In this document: in pieces, positions 2,948-57,208 of the stretch
How positions within the stretch are numbered: the first letter of the stretch is position 1
How the letters are laid out: every line of letters begins with the position of its first letter
From: Octopus sinensis
Lineage: Eukaryota
Assembly (NCBI RefSeq): GCF_006345805.1
Contig: NC_043006.1
Span: 39,742,001 to 39,806,000 of the forward strand
Direction: 5' to 3'
Length of the DNA: 64,000 nucleotides
Made by a program: the position numbers and the translations under genes
The notes under the pieces: model-generated
Told to the model about the DNA's origin: nothing
The model's database searches: none
What the model saw: only the letters and a program-made list of their open reading frames with translations

Positions 2948-3030
2948 CTACTACTACTACTTACTACTATACTACTACTACTACTACTACTAATAATAAT
3001 AATAAATAATAATAATAATAATAATAATAA

Positions 3031-3070
<40 letters not shown>

Positions 3071-3071
3071 T
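2948..3071. repeat. (CTA)n/(TAA)n microsatellite
   Basis: Direct reading; borders the R4/Dong fragment. Confidence 0.95.
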
Positions 3072-3833
3072 TAGCAATGGCTGCGGGGAGGAGACTGAAA
3101 AGGGCCCACTGAGGCATTAGTGTGTAGCACTCAAGAAGAAACTACTCCAAATATGACATTGATAAAAAAACTGACTCGCCACAGTGTAGGATGTGTTCTG
3201 AGAAAAGAGAAAGCATAAGCCATATTGTTAGTGAGTGCTGTAAGCTCGCACAACGCGAATACAAAAGGAGAATCGACAATGTAGTCAGATATGTCCACTG
3301 GCAGTAAAGCAAATATCGAGAGAACCGAAGAATGGTATGAACACAAGCCAGAAGGAGTAATAGAAAACAAACATTATAATACTCTGGGATTTTAACATAC
3401 AGTGCGTGGATATGAGACGGCCAGATATCGTGATCATCCATAAAGATGTAAAAGAAGCAATGATATAGATACTGTAATACCAGGCGATTCGAGAGTGAGA
3501 TGTAAGTAAACAGAAAAGACTGAGAAGTACCAGCCACTGCGGGACGAGATGGGAAAGTTATGGGGCATGAATGAGGAAAGTAATGAGGATACCAGAGGTA
3601 ATTGAAACATTAGGAGGAGTTTCCAAGGGCTTTGAAAAACATATTAAGAAAATTGGAGCTGCTGTCAGGTTCAAAGTGATCCAGAAGACAGCATTGTTAG
3701 GTACAGTTCGCATTCTAAGGAAAGTATTGTCTCTTTGAGTCACAGGAGAAGGCACTACTTGAAACATTTGGTGATTTGTTTTTGCTTGCTTTCAAGCAAA
3801 TGATAACCGGTAATTAAGGAGTATCCGAGGGTT

Positions 3834-3835
<2 letters not shown>
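3072..3835 (+). mobile_element. R4/Dong-clade non-LTR retrotransposon, 3' fragment (zinc knuckle + restriction-like endonuclease), degenerate
   Basis: Frameshifted translation gives CRMCSEKRESISHIVSECCKLAQREYKRR (CCHC), RRPDIVII (PD motif), EKYQPL and QKTALLGTVRILRKVLSL*; flanked on both sides by (TAA)n, the known Dong target. Confidence 0.85.
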
Positions 3836-3870
<35 letters not shown>

Positions 3871-3872
<2 letters not shown>

Positions 3873-4418
3873 GCAGTACCAGGCAGTGGCTCTCATGACT
3901 TCTGATCTTAACTGATTGGAAGTGTTTTCATGTACATTGTTTTGTCTTGGTATAAAAGATGGGCTACAGCAAATATTATGCTCAATACCAGAGATTTGCT
4001 TGTCAGTTGTTTGACCTTAACCAGTTGAGCATGTCCCTTAGTGGCTGACGATATGTGTATCTCTGATCACGAGCAGAAGTAGTGGGGGAGCATCATAGCC
4101 ATGTGTTGAGAGGGATTCTTTGGGATTTGAATAGTTCACCTCTGGAAACATGAGTGGTTCTTTCAACATCCTTAAACAACCCTTATACAGGGACCGTTTG
4201 AGCGGGATGGGCTACTCAACCTGAAGAAAATTCTAACTGGGCCCCACCTGCAAGGTCATGTGCTGTTTATCTTGATATGAGATCACCATGTCGCGCACAT
4301 ATGGTTGTGATGCATGTGCCTGGTGTACCTTTATCAGACGGGTAGTCATGATGGGTATATTGGGCTTCGTATATTTTACCCCAGTGTCACTTTGATGGCA
4401 TGAACTGCTCTCTCACTC
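3871..4418 (+). mobile_element. Element X copy 1: ~550-bp non-coding interspersed repeat in (TAA)n
   Basis: Clearly similar to 4482-5035, 56209-56762 and 56859-57208; (TAA)n on both sides. Confidence 0.85.
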
Positions 4419-4477
<59 letters not shown>

Positions 4478-4481
4478 TAAT

Positions 4482-5035
4482 CCTGATGCAGTACCAGGCA
4501 GTGACTCTCATGGCTTCTTATCTTAACTAATTGAAAGTGTTTTCATGTACATTGTTTTGTCTTGGTATAAAAGACGGGTTAACAACAAATATTCTGCTCA
4601 ATACCACATATTTGCTTGTCAGTTGTTTGGCCTTAACCGGTTGAGCATGTCCCTTAGTGGCTGACGATACGTACATCTCTGATCACGAGCAGAAGTAGTG
4701 GGGGAGCATCATAGCCATGTGTTGAGAGGATTTTGGGGGAAGTTTGGATAATTCACCTTTGGAAACAGCGGTATTTCGTTCAACATCCTTAAACAATCCT
4801 TATTCAGGGTCATTTTGAGTGGGATGGGCTACAAAACCTGAAGAAAATTCTAACTGGGCCCCACCTGCAAGGTCATGTGCTGTTAATCTTCATATGAGAT
4901 CACCATGTCACGCACATCTAGTTGTCGTACATGTGCCTGATGTGCCCTTATCAGACGGGTAGTCATGATGGGTATACTGGGCTTTGTATATTTTACCCCA
5001 GTGCCACTTTGATGGCATGCACTGCTCTCTCACTC
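4482..5035 (+). mobile_element. Element X copy 2
   Basis: Starts CCTGATGCAGTACCAGGC, ends CTCTCTCACTC then (AAT)n. Confidence 0.85.
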
Positions 5036-5049
5036 AATAATAATAATAT

Positions 5050-5114
<65 letters not shown>

Positions 5115-5149
5115 TGATGATAATAATAATAATAATAATGATGATGATG

Positions 5150-5191
<42 letters not shown>

Positions 5192-5217
5192 TAATAATAA
5201 TAATAATAAAAGTAATC

Positions 5218-8472: not shown

Positions 8473-9238
8473 AGGCGGCAGCTGACAGAAATGTTAGCAC
8501 GCCGGGCGAAATGCGTAGCCGTATTTCGTCTGCCGTTACGTTCTGAGTTCAAATTCCGCCGAGGTCGACTTTGCCTTTCATCTTTTCGGGGTCAATAAAT
8601 TAAGTACCAGTTATGCACTGGAGTCGATGTAATCGACTTGATCCATTTCTCTGTCCTTGTTTGTCCCCTCTGTGTTTAGCCCCTTGTGTGTAGTAAAGAA
8701 ATAGGTATTTCGTCTGTCTTTACGTTCTGAGTTCAAATTCGGCCGAGGTCGACTTTGCCTTTCATCCTTTCGGGGTCGATTAAATAAGTACCAGTTACGC
8801 ACTGGGGTCGATATAATCGACTTAATCCTTTTGTCTGTCCTTTTTTGTCCTCTCTGTGTTTACCCCCTTGTGTGTAGTAAAGAAATAGGTATTTCGTCTG
8901 TCTTTACGTTCTGAGTTCAAATTCGGCCGAGGTCGACTTTGCCTTTCATCCTTTCGGGGTCGATTAAATAAGTACCAGTTACGCACTGGGGTCGATATAA
9001 TCGACTTAATCCTTTTGTCTGTCCTTTTTTGTCCTCTCTGTGTTTACCCCCTTGTGTGTAGTAAAGAAATAGGTATTTCATCTGTCTTTACGTTCTGAGT
9101 TCAAATTTCGCCGAGATCGACTTCGTCTGTCATCCTTTTGGGGTCGATAAATTAAGTACTAGTTGCGTACTGGAGTCAATCTAATCGTCTGGCCCCCTCC
9201 CTCAAAATTTCGGGCCTTGTGCCAAGGGTAGAAAAGAA
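8473..9238 (+). mobile_element. Meta-domain SINE (family D) with four tandem 184-bp units
   Basis: Head AGGCGGCAGCTGACAGAAATGTTAG, B-box GTTCAAATTCC, Meta-like GTCGACTTTGCCTTTCATCCTTTCGGGGTCGATAAATTAAGTACCAG; unit starts at 8521, 8705, 8889, 9073. Confidence 0.85.
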
Positions 9239-28137: not shown

Positions 28138-31100
28138 TCACAGGCGAAACCTGAGAACTGGTCCATTTATACAGGCCAGTCTCGCACAATTCACCCACCT
28201 TTCATAAAACTTGCTATCGGACAGCACTTTCCTCTCTAACCTCATCTTCCTTTTCAAGTGAAACTTGAAAAAGTTGATGAGGCCTTGACCAAAGAGGAAA
28301 GTGTCTGACTTTAGCCCTTTCAAACGAGTCCACCACACGACTTCTTTCGCCACCGCCACAAGGCACAAGAAAACGGCCTCGCCCTCCTTGTTAAAGGAGG
28401 TCGGCGGGGCAATCTTCACTATGGATTCGGCCGATAGTCGGATCCGTCCTACACGTGACAGTAGCTGTTCGACATAAACCCATATTTCAGCAATACTCGG
28501 GCACTGGACGAGTGCGTGCAGAACGGTTTCGTCGTCCTGGCAACACCTCGGGCAGGCCCGGCTGACGGCACTTCCGTGCCGGTAGAGTTTATCTCGAACA
28601 GGCAGAGCCCCTCGGTAGCACTGCCAGGCGAGAGACCTCTGGAAATTATCCATCGGCCCCGGCCCGAAAGTCCTCCCGAACAGACCGCTCAGTTCGTCGT
28701 CTTCAACGCCTAGAGTTTCCCCGAGAACGTCGTCGCATTTTTCCTCCACTAACCCTCTATAGAACGCTAGAGTGGAGCTGTAACCGACCGCATTGCCCGC
28801 CTGGTGGAGGGCGGAGAGGGCTTGACGGCACTCGAGGTGCCAAGCGCCCTTTCTCGGTCTACGTTTGATCCAGGTCTGCAGCTCCGTCAAAGAGACGAGC
28901 TGCGGAAAATCGCGTCTGACAAAAGACGACCACACCTGTTCACCGTCTAGGAAGCGCTTGAGATGCCGCAGCCTGAGCGCATGTCTGCGCAACAGCAACC
29001 ACGGCATTCCAAGGCCTCCGTTCAGCGGTCGTTGACAGCAGATGGATCGCCTGACCAGTGGCACCTGACCCTTCCACAAAAAGTCGAAGAGCAGGCGTAC
29101 CAGCTTGGCCAACCAGCGGTCGGGACAAGGGACGACGGTCAAGCGGTAATAGATGACGGATGCGATGTACGCATTCGCCACCTCCGCTCGACCTTTCAGG
29201 GACAGCTTCCTCTCGGCCCATTTCTGGGTGAGACGTGCCACCCTGCTCGTCACCTCTTCCCAGTTCTTATCCACCTGGAGGTCCGGACCGAACCAGACCC
29301 CGAGCAGTTTAACGGGTCCGTCTGTCCAGCGCCCTACGACGCTGTTGGACGGCATGGGCTTGCCTCTCCAGGTGCCCAGTTGCAAGCCCACAGACTTTTC
29401 CGCGTTAATCTTTGCCCCTGTCACCGCTTCGTACTGGTTTAGCGTCTCGCCAATCAGGCCAATGTGCCTGTGGCTCGACACCACCACGGTGACGTCGTCG
29501 GCATAAGCAGACACGCTGTTTCCGCCTCCTAGATCGCGCGGGATGCCCCTCAAAGCCTCCAACTTGCGCAGTAATGGCTCGAGAGTCAAAATGTACAAGA
29601 GGGAGGAGAGAGGGCATCCTTGGCGGACCGAACGCGAGATGTCAAACGGTTCCGAAAGGTGACCGTTCACCCGTATCACCGAGCAGATGTTGCTGTATAA
29701 AGCAGCGATCCACCCGCGGAAGACTGGACCGAAGCCGGCTGCCTTGAGGACAGCTGCCAGGTACCGATGGTCGACCCTATCGAAGGCTTTACTCTGATCC
29801 AAGTTGATCAAAGCCCCCCCGCGCCAGCGTCGTTACCCACCCTCTCTATGATGTAGCGCATGAGATGGAGGTTGTCGTGTATCGACCTGGTCGGCACGGC
29901 GCATGTCTGCGTCCCGCCGACCAGCTTGTCCACGACAAGCGCCAATCTCTTGGCTAGCACCTTGGCCAAAATCTTCAACTCTGCATTGAGCAGAGTGATG
30001 GGCCGGAAATTCCCTATAACGTCCCCCTTGTTTGGGTCCTTCTTTAGCAAAGCCACCACCCCTCGACAGACAAAAGCAGGAATTCTCCCGTTTTGCTGCC
30101 AGTTGCAGTAGACGTTTGCCAACAGGTCCGCAAACAAGTCTGGCATTGAAAAGTAAAGCTCGTAGGCCAGACCATCCAAACCCGGCGATCTACCTCTCGT
30201 GCAACTCTTCATCGCTTCCTGTACTTCCCAGGCAGATATCGGTCCTTCGCAGCACTCTGCCTCGCTGTCCGAGAGTTGCGGCAGTCCGTCCAGGTACACA
30301 CCGAAGTCTGTACCGTTGGTGTCCGTTCCACCGCTCGTCCCAAACAGTTGAGCAAAGTGCCGCTGAAGCACCGTACACATCTGCTTCGGTTGGGTAACCT
30401 CGCGCCCGTTCTGGTCCACCAAAGACCGAATGGTTGCTCTGTTGCCTCGCTTCGCCTCCGCCACGCGGGCCCATCGAGCGGCTCTAGTCCCCTCCCCGCT
30501 TAGCGAACGTGCCTTAGCTCTGACAACGCAGCCTTCGTGTTTGGCGTCGAAGTGTTGGTCGAGGGCCAACCTTGCCGCCAACACGTCGGTCGCGATGCCA
30601 GTGTCAAGAGCCTCGTCTAGTTTCTTAACTAAATCCCGCTCTCTCTTCCTACGTTCAATAGCTAGAGTCTTACTATACCTAATCGACTCTACTCTAATTG
30701 CTCTCTTGAGGGCAAACCACCAGTTGTTGTTGATGATTGCCCCCGTGAGCGCCCGCTTAACTAGTAAACTAATCCGGTCTCTGTAAGCTTTGCACGCCGT
30801 TAACGACGCGTTCAGCTTCCAGTAGCCGGGTCCCTGTCTATGTAGCCTATCTAAGTCGACCGTACAGATCACTAATTTGTGGTCCGTATATTCGACTAGG
30901 TGGAATTGTGGACCCCCTACGCTGTCCTTATCCGCTGGCCTACAAAACACTCTATCTAAGTAATCTAGACGACCCGATGCGGTTTGTCCAAGTCCACATT
31001 GGCACATTCGGGTTGTCTAGTCGAAACCTGTCGGACAGCTGAAAGCGGCCGAGTAGGTTGGCGAGGTTCTTGCACCCTCCCCCTCTCCTATCAGACGCTC

Positions 31101-31567
31101 CCCTGCCCACCCGATCGAAACGTTCGTCTAAGACAGCGTTCCAATCCCCAACTAGTACTAGAGTGCGTGACGTTCCCAGGAAAACCTCCAGACGTTTGAA
31201 ATAATCCGACTGCCCTGCTCCTGTCGGAGCGTAGGCAGCCAGCAGTCTGAAAGCACCGCCGTCACTACCGTCGACGTCGAGGACCACCAACTTACCTTCC
31301 GGATCCAAGAAGACTGTCCTTATTTTCAGGTCCAGGCCCTTCCGAAACAACACCGCAGTACCACCACCGCCCGCTCCCGGCCGACACGGAGATAGAAATA
31401 TCTCGTATCCGCCGAAAAGGGCTGCGAGTTCCTGCGGGTGGGAGAGCCTGGTTTCACTGATGGCTGCTACATCCACATCATGAAACCTCAGGTCGTTTAC
31501 AGGTGACCCTGTTTCCAAGGTGACCGAGGCCTCTCACATTCAAACAACCGATTCTAAGATTTGCCAT
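28138..31567 (-). pseudogene. Tx1 ORF2: AP endonuclease - reverse transcriptase - CCHC zinc finger, with three frameshifts
   Basis: ATG at 31567 gives MANLRIGCLNVRGL; ISET, GDWN, YLDRV, TDHK (APE); GYWKLN; SPGLDG, FRPITLLN, KAFDRVD, RQGCPLS, YADD (RT); CPRC-x8-H-x4-C. Frameshifts near 31520, 30980 and 29815. Confidence 0.9.
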
Positions 31568-35771: not shown

Positions 35772-38700
35772 GTTGGTGGCATCCTTTTTGTCTCAGGAGA
35801 CAATGGAGTTGCACATAAAATAGTCTAGTCCGGCTTTTACATTTCATGTCCTGATACATTTCGTGCTGTGGCTGTGTAGTCCTATGCTGGACAAACACTC
35901 CCACTGGCAGGTACCGCAAATGTAGCGAAGACTGTTCCTAGCTAGTTGTAATGCCATAGTTTCTTGTTGACGTCTTTTCTTGTCTTTCCATTTCTCCTCC
36001 CTCTCTCTCTGTCACTCCTTTGTATTCCCTCTTTTACGGTACGTCGCCAATCTCCACGGTTGCCGGCAACTGCCTCCCACCGCTAATATTGATGTTGCAG
36101 GCCTTCATGTCCCTTTTGCAAACATCCTTGTAACGTAAGAACGGTCTACCCACAGACCTAGTACACTTAGCAAGCTCTCCGTAGAGTATGTCCTTGAGGA
36201 TTCTGCCATCTTTCATACGGCTAACATGCCCAAGCCATCTCATACGTCTTTGTGTGAGGAGTGCAAACATGCTTGGTATTCCTGCTTGCTTGAGGACATC
36301 TTTATTGGGGATATGATTCTGCCATTTGATGCGGAGGATTTTCCGGAGGCAGCGCAGGTGAAAGATGTTTAGGCGACGCTCTTGGCGTGTGTATAGCGTC
36401 CAAGTCTCACTTCCATACAGTAGAGTGCTAAGTATACATGCCTGGTAGATCATTTTCGTAGTCTTGGTCAGCTTATTGTTGCCCCACGCCCGTTTGGAGA
36501 GTTGGGCCATCGCAGCAGCTGTCTTGCCAATGCGTATATTGAGCTCAGCGTCAAGGGATAGGTTGTAGGTGACGGTAGAGCCAAGATAGGTAAACTTCTC
36601 CACCTCTTGTAATCTGTGGTCTCCAATATGTATGTTTGGGATGTCCGATGTAGCCTGACCCATGATGTTAGTCTTCTTAAGGCTGATAGCTAAGCCAAAG
36701 TCGTTACATGCTTGCTCAAAACAGTTAATGAGCCTTTGGAGGGCTTCTTCTGTGTGTGATACCTGAGCGGCACCATCAGCAAATAACATCTCCTTGATCA
36801 GAACGTTTCTGATTTTGGTCTTGGCACGCAGGCGCGAGAGATTGAACGGTTTCATGTCACTTCTACTGTGCAGAAACCCTCCATCATCTGATGTCTGAAA
36901 GGCATGTGAGAGTAAGAGCGAGAAGAAGATGCCAAATAATGTAGGAGCGAGGACACAACCATGCTTTACCCCGTTTTTTATTTGGAAGGCGGCTGATGTT
37001 GAACCATTGTGCTGTATGGTGCCTTGCATATCATCATGGAAAGACTTGATGATCCTCAGCAGCTTTGGTGGACATCCAATTTTTTGGAGCAGGATGAAGA
37101 GGCCTGTTCTGCTTACCGAGTCAAAGGTCTTTGTTAGATCAATGAAGGCCATATATAGTGGCATTTTCTGCTCTCTGGACTTCTGAAGTTGGCGTATGGA
37201 GAATATCATATCGATAGTTGATCTGCTACTTCTAAAGCCACACTGCGATTACGGATAGATTCGAGAAGCAAGTAGTTGTAGCCTGGCCAGGATAACTCGG
37301 GCAAAGGTCTTTCCAACAGTGCTTAGAAGAGATATTCCACGGTAATTGTTACAATCACCACGGTCACCTTTGTTTTTGTAAAGCGTAATGATGTCAGCAT
37401 CCCGCATATCCTGAGGAACTGTACCCTCTTCCCAGCACTGACACAGAAGCTCATGAAGGTACCGAAGCAGGAAGGTGTTTTTGCCGGCTTTGATGATCTC
37501 TGAGGGGATGCCGTCTTTTCCCGGAGCCTTGTTTCTTGCTAGGGAGTCAATAGCCATTGTGAGCTCTGCTATAGATGGCGGACTGTCAAGTTCGCACATG
37601 ACTGGCAAGATCTTGACACTCTCGACTGCAGCCTCAGCCACTGTAGTCTCCCGTGAGTAGAGATCCTGGTAGTGCTCCACCCATCTATCCATTTGCTTGT
37701 TTTGACCCCTGATGAGATCTCCAGTAGTTGATTTCAGAGGGGCTGACTTGGTTGCGGATGGACCGAGGGCCTTCTTCAAACCGGCATACATCCCACGGGT
37801 ATCGCCCCCGTCAGCAGCTGACTGGATACTCTGACAGATTTCCTGCCAATACCTATTTGCACAACGTCTGGCTGTCAGTTGGGTTTTATTTCGTGCCTTT
37901 CTGAGTTCTTCGAGTGACTTTGTAGAAGAGTCACTCTTGTATTGCATCAGAGCTGCACGCTTTGCTTCGATAACTGGCTCCAGCTCTGAGAGCCCAGCAT
38001 TGAACCAATCTGGGTTTTGCCTTTCTCTCATGCCGAAAGTATCTATTGATGTCGTATACAAAGCTTCCCTGATATAGTTCCATCTACTTTCAGCAGAGGA
38101 GGTTGGGCAGCTAATGAGGGCAACCTTGATCGAAGCAGCAAAACATTTTCGCAGTGTAAGGTCCGAGGTTCTGGCAGTGTTAATGCGTGGTCGGCCCACT
38201 TTCTTGGAGCGATGGACCTTTTTAGGCAGAATCCTAACCCTACTTCTAAGTAGTGAGTGGTCTGTGTCACAATCCGCGCTGTGGTAACTGCGGGTCAATA
38301 GAATAGAATTCAGAAAAGATCTCCGTGTAATGATGAGATCCAGCTGATGCCAGTGGTGAGATCTTGGATGTCTCCAAGATGCCTTGTGGGATGGTTTGTT
38401 GGTAGAGAATGGGTTTGTGATGCACAGGTTATGGTATGTGCAGAATTCGAGTAGTCTCTGACCATTGTCATTCATGTTGCCAATACCAAAGTGTCCAACA
38501 CAAATGGGCCACGAATAATGGTCAGATCCCCCGCGAGCGTTAAAATCCCCTAGAAGGTAGATATTTTCAGTTGTTGGTATATTTTCTATGACACAGTTGA
38601 GATCTTTGTAGAACTGGTCCTTGGTCTCCTCTGAGCTGTAGAGAGTGGGAGCATAGATGCTGAGTAGATGTACTGAGCCAGAAAAGGTTGAGAGGCGCAG

Positions 38701-39180
38701 TGAGAGGATACGCTCAGTGCCTCCTGATGGTGGTTCTATTGAGGAGAGTAATGAGTTTCTCACTGCAAAGCCAACGCCATGTTGACGAGGTTCTTCTGGA
38801 TCTCTTCCCTGCCCTGCCAAAAGAAGGTGAAATCCTGTTCTTTGAGTTTGTCGTTTGAGGGAAGTCTTGTCTCCTGTAGCCCAGCAATGTTTATGTTGAG
38901 CCTCTTTAGTTCACGGTCAATGATGGCCGTTTTCCTTGTGTCTTCAACCCTGAGTAGATCATCAGATATTCCAGGGCACATGGTCCTGACATTCCAGCTT
39001 GCCAACCGCAGGACTGGTGGTTTCTTGTCTTTTAGTTGTTTACCCGGTGCAGAGGTTGCAGGCCGCTTTTCAAGTCATACTCTTAGCTCCAAGCACCCAA
39101 TAAAGCAGGCGGCCTGTGGCGGGTCAGCACCTTATTAACTGGGGGCTGCCCAGCTTGAGAGGGCAGTAGCTAACCAATAG
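35772..39180 (-). mobile_element. RTE-clade LINE, essentially full length (~3.4 kb), degenerate
   Basis: Single frameshifted ORF: SWNVRT, GLQETR, YAPT, GDFN, QLDLI, TDH (APE); APGKDG, YRGISLL, GVKHGCVLAP, LFADG (RT, second catalytic Asp mutated); C-terminal CGTC...HSHSTKC; short 3' UTR. Confidence 0.92.
35861..39060 (-). pseudogene. RTE endonuclease-reverse transcriptase ORF (broken)
   Basis: ORF pieces 38760-39005, 37249-38820 and 36034-37209, plus a C-terminal zinc-finger-like piece. Confidence 0.88.
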
Positions 39181-42240: not shown

Positions 42241-43735
42241 CAGAGGTCACCAAGCTACAGCCTGCGAGGTCAGTTCATCAGGCTCGTCGCCGAACTGCTA
42301 CTTTTGTGTAAATACCTGCATTGAGAGTTCATTCCTGTAGCGATTGTCTGTTAACTGTGTTTAAACATTCTCTTCGCGAAAATGTTTGTTGAAAAGGAAT
42401 CTGTCACTCGTTCAAGTTACAAGAGAGTGCTTAAGATAGCAGAACGAGTAAAACCGTTTACTGACGGCAACTTCACCAAAGAGTGTATGATGGAAGCAGC
42501 GAATGACTTGTGTCCTAAGAAAGTCGATTTGTTTGGAAATATCAAGTTCAATTGTGTGGAGAACAAAAGAACCTGGAGAGAAAATAGTGCTACAGATACG
42601 CGAGACAGATAGGAACTTCTTGTGGTATTCTCTGGCGCTGGATGAGTCTACTGATCTCTCGAGTGCGTCACAAATTCCTGCGTTCATTTGCTGTGCTAAT
42701 TTGGACTTTCAGATCACAGAAGAGTTGGCACCCATTTGCAGCACGCACAGAACAACTAGAGAAGTCATTTTTATGGAAGTTCAGAAAATTTCGCAAAGCT
42801 ATAACTTTTAATGGAATCATCTTCGATGTGTTACAGTTGATGAAAGAAAAAAAAACATGACCGGAGTGAGGAATTGTCTGGTGGGGATGATCGGGACTAA
42901 GTTGAAAGATCATAAATTCCCAGGTGCTCTGTTTGTACACTGCATAATACATCCACGAGTACATTGTGGAAAAGACTTGGACATTTCTTGCGTACTGAAA
43001 CCAATCGTTTCTGCGGTGAACTTCATTCGGAGTCATGCAGTTCAGGCTTTTCTTGAAGAAAGTTATTCTGAATTCTGTGAGTTGCCTTATCACACAGCAG
43101 TGAGGTGGCTGAGCTGCGGTAATGTCCTGTTTCGTTTTTATAAGCTCCGAAGAGAAATAGATATTCTTCTTACCGAAACGGATAGAGCTGATCCGATTCT
43201 GTCCCATCCTTCCTGGCTGTCGAAGTTGTCATTTTTGGTTGACATCACATCCAGCATGAATGAATTGGACTTGAAACTTCAGGGAAAATTTAACCTTATT
43301 TGTGATCTCTACAGAATCAACAAAGGATTTCGGAGAAAGCTATCATTATTTGAAACACAATTGCAAGGAGTAAACTTCTCATTTCCAGTGTTTCAAAGAG
43401 TTTCACGCTGCAGTCGCAGAAGATGGCAACCTCAATGTATGTGACTTAAATAAGCATTTTTTTGAGAGAAACGGCCGAACGGTTTTCAACAAATTTGGCA
43501 GAAATACTTAGTGTCTAAGACGTTTTAAACTTTGGTTTGGTTATCCTCAAACTTGGCTGACAGGAGAATCAAAATGTTTTGATCGTGCATTAAGGATTTA
43601 TGTGCACGCAGGGCATGCATTGTTTTGGCATGCTCTCAGCACAAGAGTCTATTAGTAGCACATAAAGACATGTAATATGTCTATTCAATATTATTTATCT
43701 CTCACCAGATGGAGTATTTTTTGGTTGATCTTACC

Positions 43736-55559: not shown

Positions 55560-55609
55560 TATTGTTGTACTCGATCATTGCAATTAGTATTTTATCATTC
55601 ACCGCTTGG

Positions 55610-55815
55610 TGAGGCGAGGTGCAAGTATAGGCATCAAGCCGGTAAAAATGGCTTAGAGGTATTTCATCCGTCTCTACATTCTAAGTTCCAATTCTGCGGT
55701 GGTTGAACTGGTCTTTCGTCCGGTCTGGGTCGATAAAATAAGCAGCAGTTAAGTAGTCGGGTCGATATAATCACTTTACGCCTCCCTCCAAATTTCAGGC
55801 GTTGTGCCTATAGTA
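55610..55815 (+). mobile_element. Meta-domain SINE family D, decayed
   Basis: GGGTCGATAAAATAAG...GGTCGATATAATC...AAATTTCAGGC. Confidence 0.55.
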
Positions 55816-55820
55816 ACTGG

Positions 55821-55871
<51 letters not shown>

Positions 55872-55872
55872 T

Positions 55873-56193
55873 AGTAGTTTTATTTTTTATAGCGTGCTTC
55901 CACTTCACTACCGAGCGCAGCTCTGTGTGCCTTGGGTACGTGCTGTGATTTGTTGTAATGCTCTGATGGTTATTGTATGGAAAGTGTTCTGCGTAGGATG
56001 TGTGCAGTGCCTAGTAGTGCAATTTTCTGTATGTTATATGTGTTTGTAAGTCCTGGTGTTTTTGTTATGTATTTGTCTGAATATTTTTTATCATGCCTAA
56101 TGCACCTACTATGATAGGAATTGTTTCTGTTTTTAGATTCCACATTCTGGTTACCTCCATTTCCAGGTCTTTGTATTTTGAAAGTTTCTCCAT
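55873..56193 (-). mobile_element. R4/Dong-clade 3' fragment (second family) in (TAA)n
   Basis: EKLSKYKDLEMEVTRMWNLKTETIPIIVGALGMIK...NIQKIALLGTAHILRRTLSIQ*; homologous to the 3072 C-terminus but with a different 3' UTR. Confidence 0.85.
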
Positions 56194-56208
56194 ATTATTA
56201 TTATTATT

Positions 56209-56761
56209 GAGTGAGCGAGCAGAGCATGCCATCAAAGTGACACTGGGGTAAAATATACGAAGCCTAGTATACCCATCATGACTACCCGTCTGATAAGGGT
56301 ACACCAGGCACATGCATCACAACCATATGTGCGCGACATGGTGATCTGATATCAAGATAAACAGCACATGACCTTGCAGGTGGAGCCCAGTTAGAATTTT
56401 CTTCAGATCGAGTCACCCATCCCGCTCAAAAGGTCCCTGAATAAGGGTTGTTTAAGGACGTTGAACGAAACACCCATGTTTCCAGAGGTGAATTATTCAA
56501 ACCCCAAAGAATCCTTCTCAACACATGGCTATGATGCTCCCCCACTACTTCTGCTCGTGATCAGAGATGCACATATCGTCAGCCACTAAGGGACATGCTC
56601 AACTGGTTAAGGTCAAACAACTGACAAGCAAATCTGTGGTATTGAGCAGAATATTTGCTGTAGCCCATCTTTTATACCAAGACAAAACAATGTCCATGAT
56701 AACACTTCCAATCAGTTAAGATCAGAAGCCATGAGAGCCACTGCCTGGTACTGCATCAGGG

Positions 56762-56762
<1 letters not shown>
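56209..56762 (-). mobile_element. Element X copy 3 (full length)
   Basis: Reverse complement of 4482-5035; (TAA)n on both sides. Confidence 0.85.
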
Positions 56763-56833
<71 letters not shown>

Positions 56834-56858
56834 CATTATTATTATTATTATTATTATT

Positions 56859-57208
56859 GAGTGAGAGTGCAGTGCATGCCATGTAAGTGACACTGGGGTA
56901 AAATATATGAAGCCCAGTATACCCATCATGACTACCCGTCTGATAAGGGTACACCGGGTACATGCATCATAACCAAATGTGCGCGACATGGTGGTCTCAT
57001 ATCAAGATAAACAGCACATGACCTTGCAGGTGGGGCCCAGTTAGAATTTTCTTCTGGTCGAGTAGGTCATCCCGCTCAAAAGGTCCCTGAATAAGGGTTG
57101 TTTAAGGATGTTGAACGAAACACCCATGTTTCCAGAGGTGAATGATAACACTTCCAATCATTTAAGATCAGAAGCCACGAGAGGCACTGCCTGGTACTGC
57201 ATCAGGGC
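56859..57208 (-). mobile_element. Element X copy 4 (~200-bp internal deletion)
   Basis: Both termini retained; junction GGTGAAT|GATAACAC at ~57143. Confidence 0.85.

What the first reader, a model, noticed from the sequence alone, without database searches (positions are those of the whole stretch)
3871..5035. Element X: a ~550-bp non-tRNA retroposon-like repeat confined to (TAA)n, co-located with R4/Dong
Seen: four copies (3871-4418, 4482-5035, 56209-56762, 56859-57208) with nearly the same 5' end ((GC)CCTGATGCAGTACC) and the same 3' end (CTCACTC-(AAT)n). Each is separated by TAA repeats. At both loci, 52 kb apart, they share a microsatellite with an R4/Dong 3' fragment in the same orientation. 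I see no tRNA A/B-box head, TIR or meaningful ORF. Established: Dong elements target TAA repeats using an RLE domain. Inference: X is a non-autonomous RNA mobilised by the R4/Dong enzyme. Fixed 5' ends argue against random truncation of a LINE 3' UTR. I see no primary-sequence match between X's tail and the two Dong tails here, so recognition would be structural or involve a third family.
Basis: partly seen in the sequence, partly recalled or inferred. Interest (0 to 1): 0.85.

Follow-up and report, generated by a model that had tools for sequence, protein, structure and literature searches.

The report
Dong-borrowing retroposon in TAA repeats
This is a real, young, very abundant 554-base non-coding jumping element that sits in TAA repeats and likely borrows the copying enzyme of R4/Dong retrotransposons, probably by carrying a folded-RNA hairpin like theirs rather than a shared sequence.

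Summary
Confirmed. X is a 554-nt non-coding repeat with 8,385 exact tails and 5,935 exact heads in the genome (roughly 20,000 copies); its youngest copies are 99% identical. It has the marks of target-primed reverse transcription: a fixed 3' end running into (AAT)n, 14 of 30 copies 5'-truncated, and tandem repeats of its head. It sits in TAA tracts in the same orientation as R4/Dong-type elements, of which about 15 tail types occur here; three are young, one with an intact ORF. No tRNA, Rfam or primary-sequence match to Dong heads or tails was found. New here: Dong 3' UTRs share a covarying hairpin about 35-65 nt before the TAA tail, also in metagenome relatives, and X carries an imperfect version 67 nt before its end. 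Support for that match is moderate: strong with my own profile, E about 0.03 with Infernal within X, not significant window-wide. X's middle 170 nt is also the core of an older MITE. Mobilisation by Dong is inferred, not shown; promoter, expression and partner family are unknown; Repbase, Dfam and de novo libraries were not checked.

The parts
3871..4418 (+). X copy 1, 5' end clipped by 6 nt
   Evidence: 95% identical to copy 3 over positions 7-554
4482..5035 (+). X copy 2, older
   Evidence: 90% identical to copy 3 over positions 3-554
56209..56762 (-). X copy 3, complete, youngest subfamily
   Evidence: 40 other places at 99% identity among the 41 matches listed
56859..57208 (-). X copy 4, internal deletion of positions 68-266
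   Evidence: two BLAST pieces, 1-67 and 267-554
56263..56308 (-). Dong-type 3' hairpin in X copy 3 (element positions 455-500): outer stem, 3x1 loop, 6-bp inner stem with one bulge, GGGTA loop
   Evidence: pairs predicted at probability 0.76-1.0
4319..4364 (+). same hairpin in X copy 1 (also 4936-4981 + in copy 2 and 56913-56958 - in copy 4)
   Evidence: best profile site in each of 4 of 4 copies; coordinates
56493..56662 (-). X positions 101-270, shared with a separate MITE family (Y)
   Evidence: 163 of 170 identical to the majority of 15 Y copies; loose ends in reads and contigs
3071..3834 (+). 3' fragment of old Dong-type family D1, with its hairpin at 3755-3799
   Evidence: CCHC and RLE remnants; relatives at most 85% identical; top hit of both hairpin models in the window
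55872..56186 (-). 3' fragment of young Dong-type family D2, with its hairpin at 55901-55946
2991..3070 (+). AAT target tract (others at 3835-3870, 4419-4481, 5036-5209)
56763..56858 (-). AAT target tract on the minus strand (others at 55821-55871, 56187-56208, and just past 57208)

Best explanation
X is a non-coding, non-tRNA retroposon that sits in (TAA)n tracts and is likely copied there by the reverse transcriptase/restriction-like endonuclease of R4/Dong elements, which probably recognise a hairpin near its 3' end. Shown: the family, its ends, truncations, target, polarity, and the covarying hairpin in Dong 3' UTRs. Inferred: (1) X is transcribed on the sense strand from about (A)ATGCCC, more likely by Pol II than Pol III, since it has three T4 runs and poor A/B boxes; (2) a Dong protein binds the hairpin at positions 455-500; (3) it nicks the TTA strand and primes reverse transcription at the 3' end, giving CACTC followed by (AAT)n; (4) early termination gives 5'-truncated copies and repeated re-priming at the 5' end gives tandem heads; (5) the present donors of enzyme are one or more of the young families D2, D3, D6. 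X has no primary-sequence match to them, so it would be a structural mimic or a long-diverged derivative of an older Dong.
For: Target: 30 of 30 loci chosen by identity alone have AAT tracts on both sides in one polarity; 3,286 of 5,935 exact heads follow a perfect AATAATAA within 1-2 nt; 16 of 30 tail-selected loci have three or more AAT within 6 nt upstream against 162 of 56,920 background positions; 29 of 30 continue into (AAT)2. 47 of 49 Dong fragments within 120 nt of X point the same way. TPRT marks: 14 of 30 truncated; X head or fragment directly upstream in 7 of 29 classified head loci, eight extra heads in L025, matched by five and two tandem heads in full-length D2 copies L072 and L074. 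Direct X-Dong fusions without AAT in L013 and L083. Young partners: D2 95-98%, D3 96-97%, D6 98-99%, a 1,235-aa open frame in L204. Hairpin: covariation 0.656 and 0.721 against shuffled 0.268 and 0.244, 0 of 500; profile trained on Dong only scores X 22.3, 0 of 200 shuffles, and the 3 sites at or above that score in 398,200 random positions are two Dong tails and one X copy; the same profile scores 12 of 29 metagenome Dong relatives at 18 or more with antisense maximum 8.3. Sense strand folds at z -4.5, antisense at +0.2.
Against: No primary-sequence match of X's head to D2, D3 or D6 heads, nor of its tail to 14 Dong tails (best D4, 49 of 400 shuffles as good). X's hairpin lacks the G that is invariant in 25 of 25 aligned Dong hairpins and has a bulge. 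Infernal scores it only 10-11 bits: E 2.8 and 3.6 in the window, where chance hits rank beside it, and E 0.025-0.03 within X alone. My first profile, without the outer stem, did not single it out (17 of 300 shuffles; antisense scored higher), and the outer-stem term was added after I had seen X pair there. The hairpin region is not more conserved than the rest of X (5.3 against 3.5-3.8% substitutions); frequent variants keep pairing only modestly more than expected (16 of 25 against 12.8, P 0.03). 3 of 30 tail loci have no tract upstream. Four other D2 heads are single. Transcription was not shown.
Confidence: 0.75

Rival explanations
1. X is an ordinary internal-deletion derivative or detached 3' UTR of a Dong family that I did not sample, sharing plain sequence with it (a SIDE of the R4 clade).
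For: About 15 tail types turned up in a small sample and an octopus annotation lists 51 Dong-R4 families (PMC13282606 supplement). Heads were seen for only three families. The hairpin resembles D4's in sequence by eye.
Against: 0 genome-wide matches for X's hairpin 16-mer placed 33-63 nt after the Dong C-terminal Gly-Thr-Ala codons (exact match needed). None of 30 tail loci or 30 head loci continues into a matching long element. X's hairpin has over 400 nt of non-coding sequence before it, while the sampled Dong 3' UTRs are at most about 220 nt.
Confidence: 0.13
2. X has its own (AAT)n tail and is moved by another LINE clade (RTE, CR1, L2, L1-Tx1); the upstream tracts come from nesting in AT-rich DNA or older tails.
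For: RTE-like and L1/Tx1-like ORFs are in the window and these clades are reported active in an octopus genome (PMC13282606). 3 of 30 tail loci have no upstream tract.
Against: Upstream AAT tracts are enriched about 190-fold and in one polarity; another abundant SINE here ends in the opposite (ATT)n phase and lacks a tract within 45 nt in 16 of 21 random or window hits. Fusions and tandem heads link X to Dong.
Confidence: 0.06
3. X copies are processed pseudogenes of one unknown host non-coding RNA that Dong proteins reverse-transcribe by accident.
For: Strand-specific folding, a fixed 5' start, a size like structured host RNAs, and no known head.
Against: Several linked haplotypes and a divergence range of 0.7-13% in 85 copies, with different majority letters in different organisms, fit successive source elements. 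No Rfam family matches.
Confidence: 0.04
4. X is a solo LTR or a Penelope pseudo-LTR.
For: It can be read as TG...CA, and it has a TATAAAA at about position 84 (direct reading).
Against: Fixed 3' ends with ragged 5' ends, strict TAA polarity and tandem heads do not fit an LTR; no copy flanks an internal coding region; no hammerhead family was hit.
Confidence: 0.02

Closest known systems
EhSINE1 of Entamoeba histolytica (PMC2996970, passages)
   Same: 500-600 bp, non-coding, no identified small-RNA precursor, thought to use a partner LINE (EhLINE1; that it is an R4-clade RLE element is recalled, not from a call).
   Different: EhSINE1 shares about 70 bp of plain sequence with its LINE's 3' end and is not target-specific (PMC1635306 abstract listing); X is TAA-directed and shares at most a structure.
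R2 SIDEs and R2/R1 hybrid SIDEs of Drosophila (PMC3414825, passages)
   Same: Non-Pol III passengers of a site-specific element, inserted in the same target and interspersed with it in tandem arrays.
   Different: SIDEs keep 76-87% identity to the R2 ribozyme and recognisable 3' UTR segments and are few; X has no detected ribozyme, no primary match, and about 20,000 copies.
Mollusc LP-SINEs with LINE-derived heads (PMC4758252, passages)
   Same: Short mollusc retroposons without a tRNA head, possibly Pol II transcribed.
   Different: Their head matches a Nimb 5' UTR and they have variable target duplications; X's head matched none of three Dong heads and was not compared with Nimb.
Dong / R4-clade elements (PMC3812793 and PMC3774820, passages)
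   Same: TAA target; X lies among them in the same polarity and has a version of their 3' hairpin.
   Different: X has no ORF; Bombyx Dong has a 5' HDV-like ribozyme, which I did not detect in X.
Octopus tRNA-derived SINEs OK, OR1, OR2 (Ohshima and Okada 1994; seen only as a reference title and a mention of OR2)
   Same: Abundant short retroposons of what appears to be the same kind of genome.
   Different: They are tRNA-derived; X has no tRNA-like head.

Membership tests
SINE (SINEBase definition) | Short (<700 bp), interspersed, at least 100 copies | tested here: met
   554 nt; 8,385 exact tails
SINE (SINEBase definition) | Head derived from tRNA, 5S or 7SL RNA | tested here: not met
   ARAGORN 0; Rfam 0 at gathering, nothing relevant at E<=10
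SINE (SINEBase definition) | Pol III transcription from an internal promoter | tested here: inconclusive
   Best A box 2 mismatches, best 11-nt B box 3 mismatches, T4 runs at 76, 332, 510 (box patterns recalled); polymerase not testable
Non-autonomous non-LTR retroposon | Fixed 3' end with simple-repeat tail and variable 5' truncation | tested here: met
   29 of 30 run into (AAT)2; 14 of 30 truncated
Non-autonomous non-LTR retroposon | No coding capacity | tested here: met
   Stops in all six frames
R4/Dong-dependent element | Same target and polarity as Dong | tested here: met
R4/Dong-dependent element | 3' recognition signal shared with Dong | tested here: inconclusive
   Structure-level match strong by own profile, weak by Infernal; no sequence match
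R4/Dong-dependent element | Mobilised by Dong protein | not testable with these tools
   needs a TPRT or cell assay
SIDE / bipartite non-autonomous LINE | 5' and 3' ends homologous to an autonomous partner | tested here: not met
   No match to 3 heads and 14 tails; other families unsampled
SIDE / bipartite non-autonomous LINE | 5' HDV-like ribozyme | tested here: inconclusive
   0 hits in X with my descriptor, but also 0 in the D2 and partial D3 regions tried, and 20 of 30 shuffles gave hits; no positive control
R4/Dong clade (for partner families D1-D14) | Single ORF with RT, CCHC, RHD and PD..D endonuclease motifs, TAA target | tested here: met
   motif meaning recalled
R4/Dong clade (for partner families D1-D14) | Placement with named R4/Dong references on an RT tree | not tested
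   No named reference sequence came from any call
LTR / pseudo-LTR | Paired copies flanking an internal coding region, both ends fixed | tested here: not met

The most novel reading that the evidence does not exclude
X is a high-copy, microsatellite-targeted, probably Pol II parasite of R4/Dong elements that has no sequence in common with any living partner and is recognised purely through a hairpin conserved across the whole clade, which would let it ride many Dong families in turn; the hairpin is the undescribed TPRT recognition signal of TAA-targeting R4/Dong elements.
Probability: 0.4. Interest if true: 0.72.

Novelty: new variant of a known kind. Interest (0 to 1): 0.58.

Why it matters
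Kojima 2018 states that only RTE, Ingi, Vingi and R2 had been reported to give bipartite non-autonomous LINEs, and the one R4-type passenger I know, EhSINE1, is not target-specific. A TAA-directed passenger at about 20,000 copies would extend that list and account for part of the large unclassified short-repeat fraction in such genomes. The covarying 3' hairpin gives a concrete, testable recognition element for R4/Dong enzymes, beside R2, whose RNA recognition has been solved. A natural 554-nt cargo that needs only a hairpin would also define the minimal RNA requirement for these enzymes.

Tried and rejected
Rfam and ARAGORN for a small-RNA head: nothing. HDV descriptor: no hit, test uninformative. 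Hammerhead cores: CTGANGA occurs twice but no Rfam hammerhead hit. Resemblance of X's head to D6's head seen by eye: not significant (86 of 500 shuffles with soft scoring), and that D6 start later proved incomplete. A Dong ORF ending just before X's hairpin: 0 matches. Hairpin profile without outer stem: not significant. Pairing of the whole MITE-shared segment with X's 3' half: not significant (39 and 12 of 150); only the post hoc 217-241 piece was (0 of 150). 5' junction phase of truncated X against D2 and D3: blurred by microhomology, not used. Earlier findings of this scan: three look-ups returned nothing. Protein atlas and homologue search gave no clade name. A second 200-kb random sample could not be fetched, so density rests on 200 kb and on pattern counts.

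Full report
Observation. Copy 3 (56209-56762, minus) is the complete 554-nt form; copy 4 lacks positions 68-266. All six frames are closed. Both loci share their AAT tract with a 3' fragment of an RT/CCHC/RLE element in the same orientation. The window lies in a 2.7-Gb genome (G000). Its size and repeats look like an octopus genome; that is recalled and no call names the organism, so octopus papers are used here as context only.

Family size and age. A DNA search listed 41 matches, the window copy and 40 others at 99% identity, from 1,985 candidates of which 40 were scored. Exact 25-mers count 5,935 heads and 8,385 tails, with 0 for the reversed controls. In loci not chosen by these patterns, 10 of 26 tails and 5 of 17 heads were exact, which scales to roughly 20,000 copies (wide margin). 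Three copies and one MITE-borne piece lay in 200 kb of evenly chosen DNA. Divergence from the majority runs from 0.7 to 13% in 85 copies. Fourteen public runs under four organism labels hold at least 85% of X's words. Expression is not shown: the one well-covered RNA run is only guessed to be RNA, and a raw DNA run under organism A's label laid only 11 reads, which I cannot explain.

Target. All 30 loci chosen by identity alone (one is the window copy) have AAT tracts on both sides in the same polarity, one of them beyond a run of repeated heads. Genome-wide, 3,286 of 5,935 exact heads follow a perfect AATAATAA within 1-2 nt. Among 30 tail-selected loci, 16 have at least three AAT within 6 nt upstream, 5 a degenerate triplet tract (one of them, L143, an opposite-strand ATT tract), 2 an X head, and 7 fell in 'other'; by eye 4 of those 7 have a short, displaced or GAT tract or an internal deletion, and 3 have none. 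Background for the first class is 162 of 56,920 positions. 29 of 30 run straight into (AAT)2. Dong fragments within 120 nt of X point the same way in 47 of 49 cases (many of these loci were found by Dong searches).

Marks of reverse transcription. Full-length copies mostly begin AATAA-ATGCCC (27 of 47 with TAAAT before GCCC), and repeated heads restart at (A)ATGCCC, which marks the likely RNA start. Head duplications are common: 7 of 29 classified head loci, with eight extra heads in L025. Full-length D2 copies show the same thing, five heads in L072 and two in L074, while four other D2 heads are single. Two loci fuse X directly to Dong coding or UTR sequence without AAT (L013 with D1, L083 with D3); template switching or later deletion could each explain them.

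Partners. About 15 tail types of this element class were seen in the fetched loci. D1 and D4 are old (at most 85% and 90%); D3 (96-97%), D2 (95-98%) and D6 (98-99%) are young, and L204 holds a 1,235-aa open frame with RT, CCHC, RHD and PD..D motifs whose closest solved relatives are R2 proteins. Calling them R4/Dong rests on these recalled motifs and the TAA target, not on a tree. X's head matches none of the three heads seen and its tail none of 14 tails. No Dong C-terminus lies 33-63 nt before X's hairpin anywhere in the genome (exact pattern).

The hairpin. Dong tails share an outer stem of about 8 bp, a 3x1 internal loop, a 6-bp inner stem opening with G and a 5-nt loop with G in the middle, about 35-65 nt before the AAT tail. 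Covariation is 0.656 in 14 families from this genome and 0.721 in 25 sequences with metagenome relatives, against 0.268 and 0.244 in shuffles and at most 0.21 in slid controls (rows were picked for having the hairpin and 5 tail types of the first set or near-duplicates were left out of the second). Out of sample, the Infernal model built from this genome alone gave 11 hits in 24 of the 80 metagenome loci, all on the plus strand at the 3' hairpin, and my profile scored 12 of the 29 loci that reach the ORF end at 18 or more, 3 more at 12.7-13.6, with antisense at most 8.3 (two near-duplicate pairs, two contigs end before the hairpin is complete). X has this architecture at positions 455-500, 67 nt before its end, with all 14 model pairs formed, one bulged base and T in place of the invariant G. 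My Dong-only profile scores it 22.3 (left-out Dong families 3.6-34.6; 0 of 200 shuffles; in 398,200 random positions only two Dong tails and one X copy reach it). Against this: the profile's first version failed, the outer stem was added after looking at X, and Infernal gives 10-11 bits, E 2.8 and 3.6 in the window and 0.025-0.03 within X, where it is the top hit. I rate the match as probably real but not proven.

RNA-level hints. The sense strand folds at z -4.5, positions 217-554 at -4.8, the antisense strand at +0.2. Frequent variants keep predicted pairs in 16 of 25 cases against 12.8 expected (P 0.03), with one linked compensatory pair, 250/316, that may only reflect shared descent. Three T4 runs and poor A/B boxes argue against Pol III. 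Bombyx Dong frees its 5' end from TAA repeats with an HDV-like ribozyme (PMC3774820, passages); I found none in X, but the test had no positive control.

Shared middle. Positions 101-270 are also the core of a separate family Y of about 500 bp with 96-nt imperfect terminal inverted repeats and identical TAA or TTA on both sides in 8 of 15 copies by eye, as in PIF/Harbinger MITEs (recalled). Y copies are 81-87% identical to the query copy and carry diagnostic letters that almost no sampled X copy has. Capture from an older X is my preferred direction, because X 217-241 pairs with X's own 3' half (0 of 150 shuffles, chosen post hoc), but it is unresolved.

What is in print. Ten searches listed no paper on a Dong-dependent short element or on this hairpin; the library lacks most subscription journals, and Albertin 2015 was not held. 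Read as passages: PMC9115989, PMC3774820, PMC5786205 (its supplement has none of three X motifs), PMC2996970, PMC11481361, PMC8967140, PMC3414825, PMC3812793, PMC3531059 (supplement unreadable), PMC4758252. PMC13282606, parts 1 and 2 of 3 and a supplement search, reports 5 recently active Dong-R4 families, 893 recently active unclassified SINE families and 58 unknown ones; X may well be among them unnamed, and that library, Repbase, Dfam and SINEBase sequences were not seen.

Verdict. A real, young, TAA-directed non-autonomous retroposon, not a SINE by the strict definition and not a shown SIDE. Dong mobilisation about 0.75-0.85; recognition through the hairpin about 0.55. New variant of a known kind; interest 0.58.

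Noticed in passing
window 3755-3799 and 55901-55946; L235:2834-2878, L237:2203-2247, L253:3450-3494 and others: A covarying 3' UTR hairpin is shared by Dong-type elements from this genome and from unrelated metagenome records; no description turned up in my searches.
   Followed up: yes
L109:126-568 and L158-L172: MITE family Y, about 500 bp, ends CACTG...CAGTG, TAA/TTA duplications, 96-nt inverted arms, carrying X positions 101-270.
   Followed up: partly
window 55591-55820: An abundant, older SINE-like repeat ends in (ATT)n, which on the other strand is the AAT tract used by Dong and X; it likely seeds their targets, as at the second locus.
   Followed up: partly
L201, L067, L072 (first 330 nt of D6, D3, D2): D3 and D6 5' UTRs share a conserved block containing GTGAGT, and D2 has GTAAGT at a similar place: possible 5' UTR intron and Pol II transcription.
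   Followed up: no
L204:2564-6268: Uninterrupted 1,235-aa ORF of the young family D6.
   Followed up: partly
L123:1282-2054: A 5'-truncated X copy preceded by many tandem copies of positions 22-44, an extreme case of junction re-priming or later expansion.
   Followed up: no
window 28138-31533 (minus): Long L1/Tx1-like endonuclease and RT frames, nearly continuous (clade recalled).
   Followed up: no
window 36034-38910 (minus): RTE-like endonuclease and RT frames of 553 and 404 aa (clade recalled).
   Followed up: no
window 8521-9187: 3.6 tandem copies of a 184-bp SINE-like unit at 93% identity.
   Followed up: no
window 42812-43444 (plus): 210-aa frame resembling a hAT/SPIN-type transposase fragment (recalled).
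   Followed up: no
run X24 on window 56209-56762: A raw DNA run under organism A's label laid only 11 reads from 1,934 million letters, mostly of the Y type or divergent; filter effect or mislabel.
   Followed up: no
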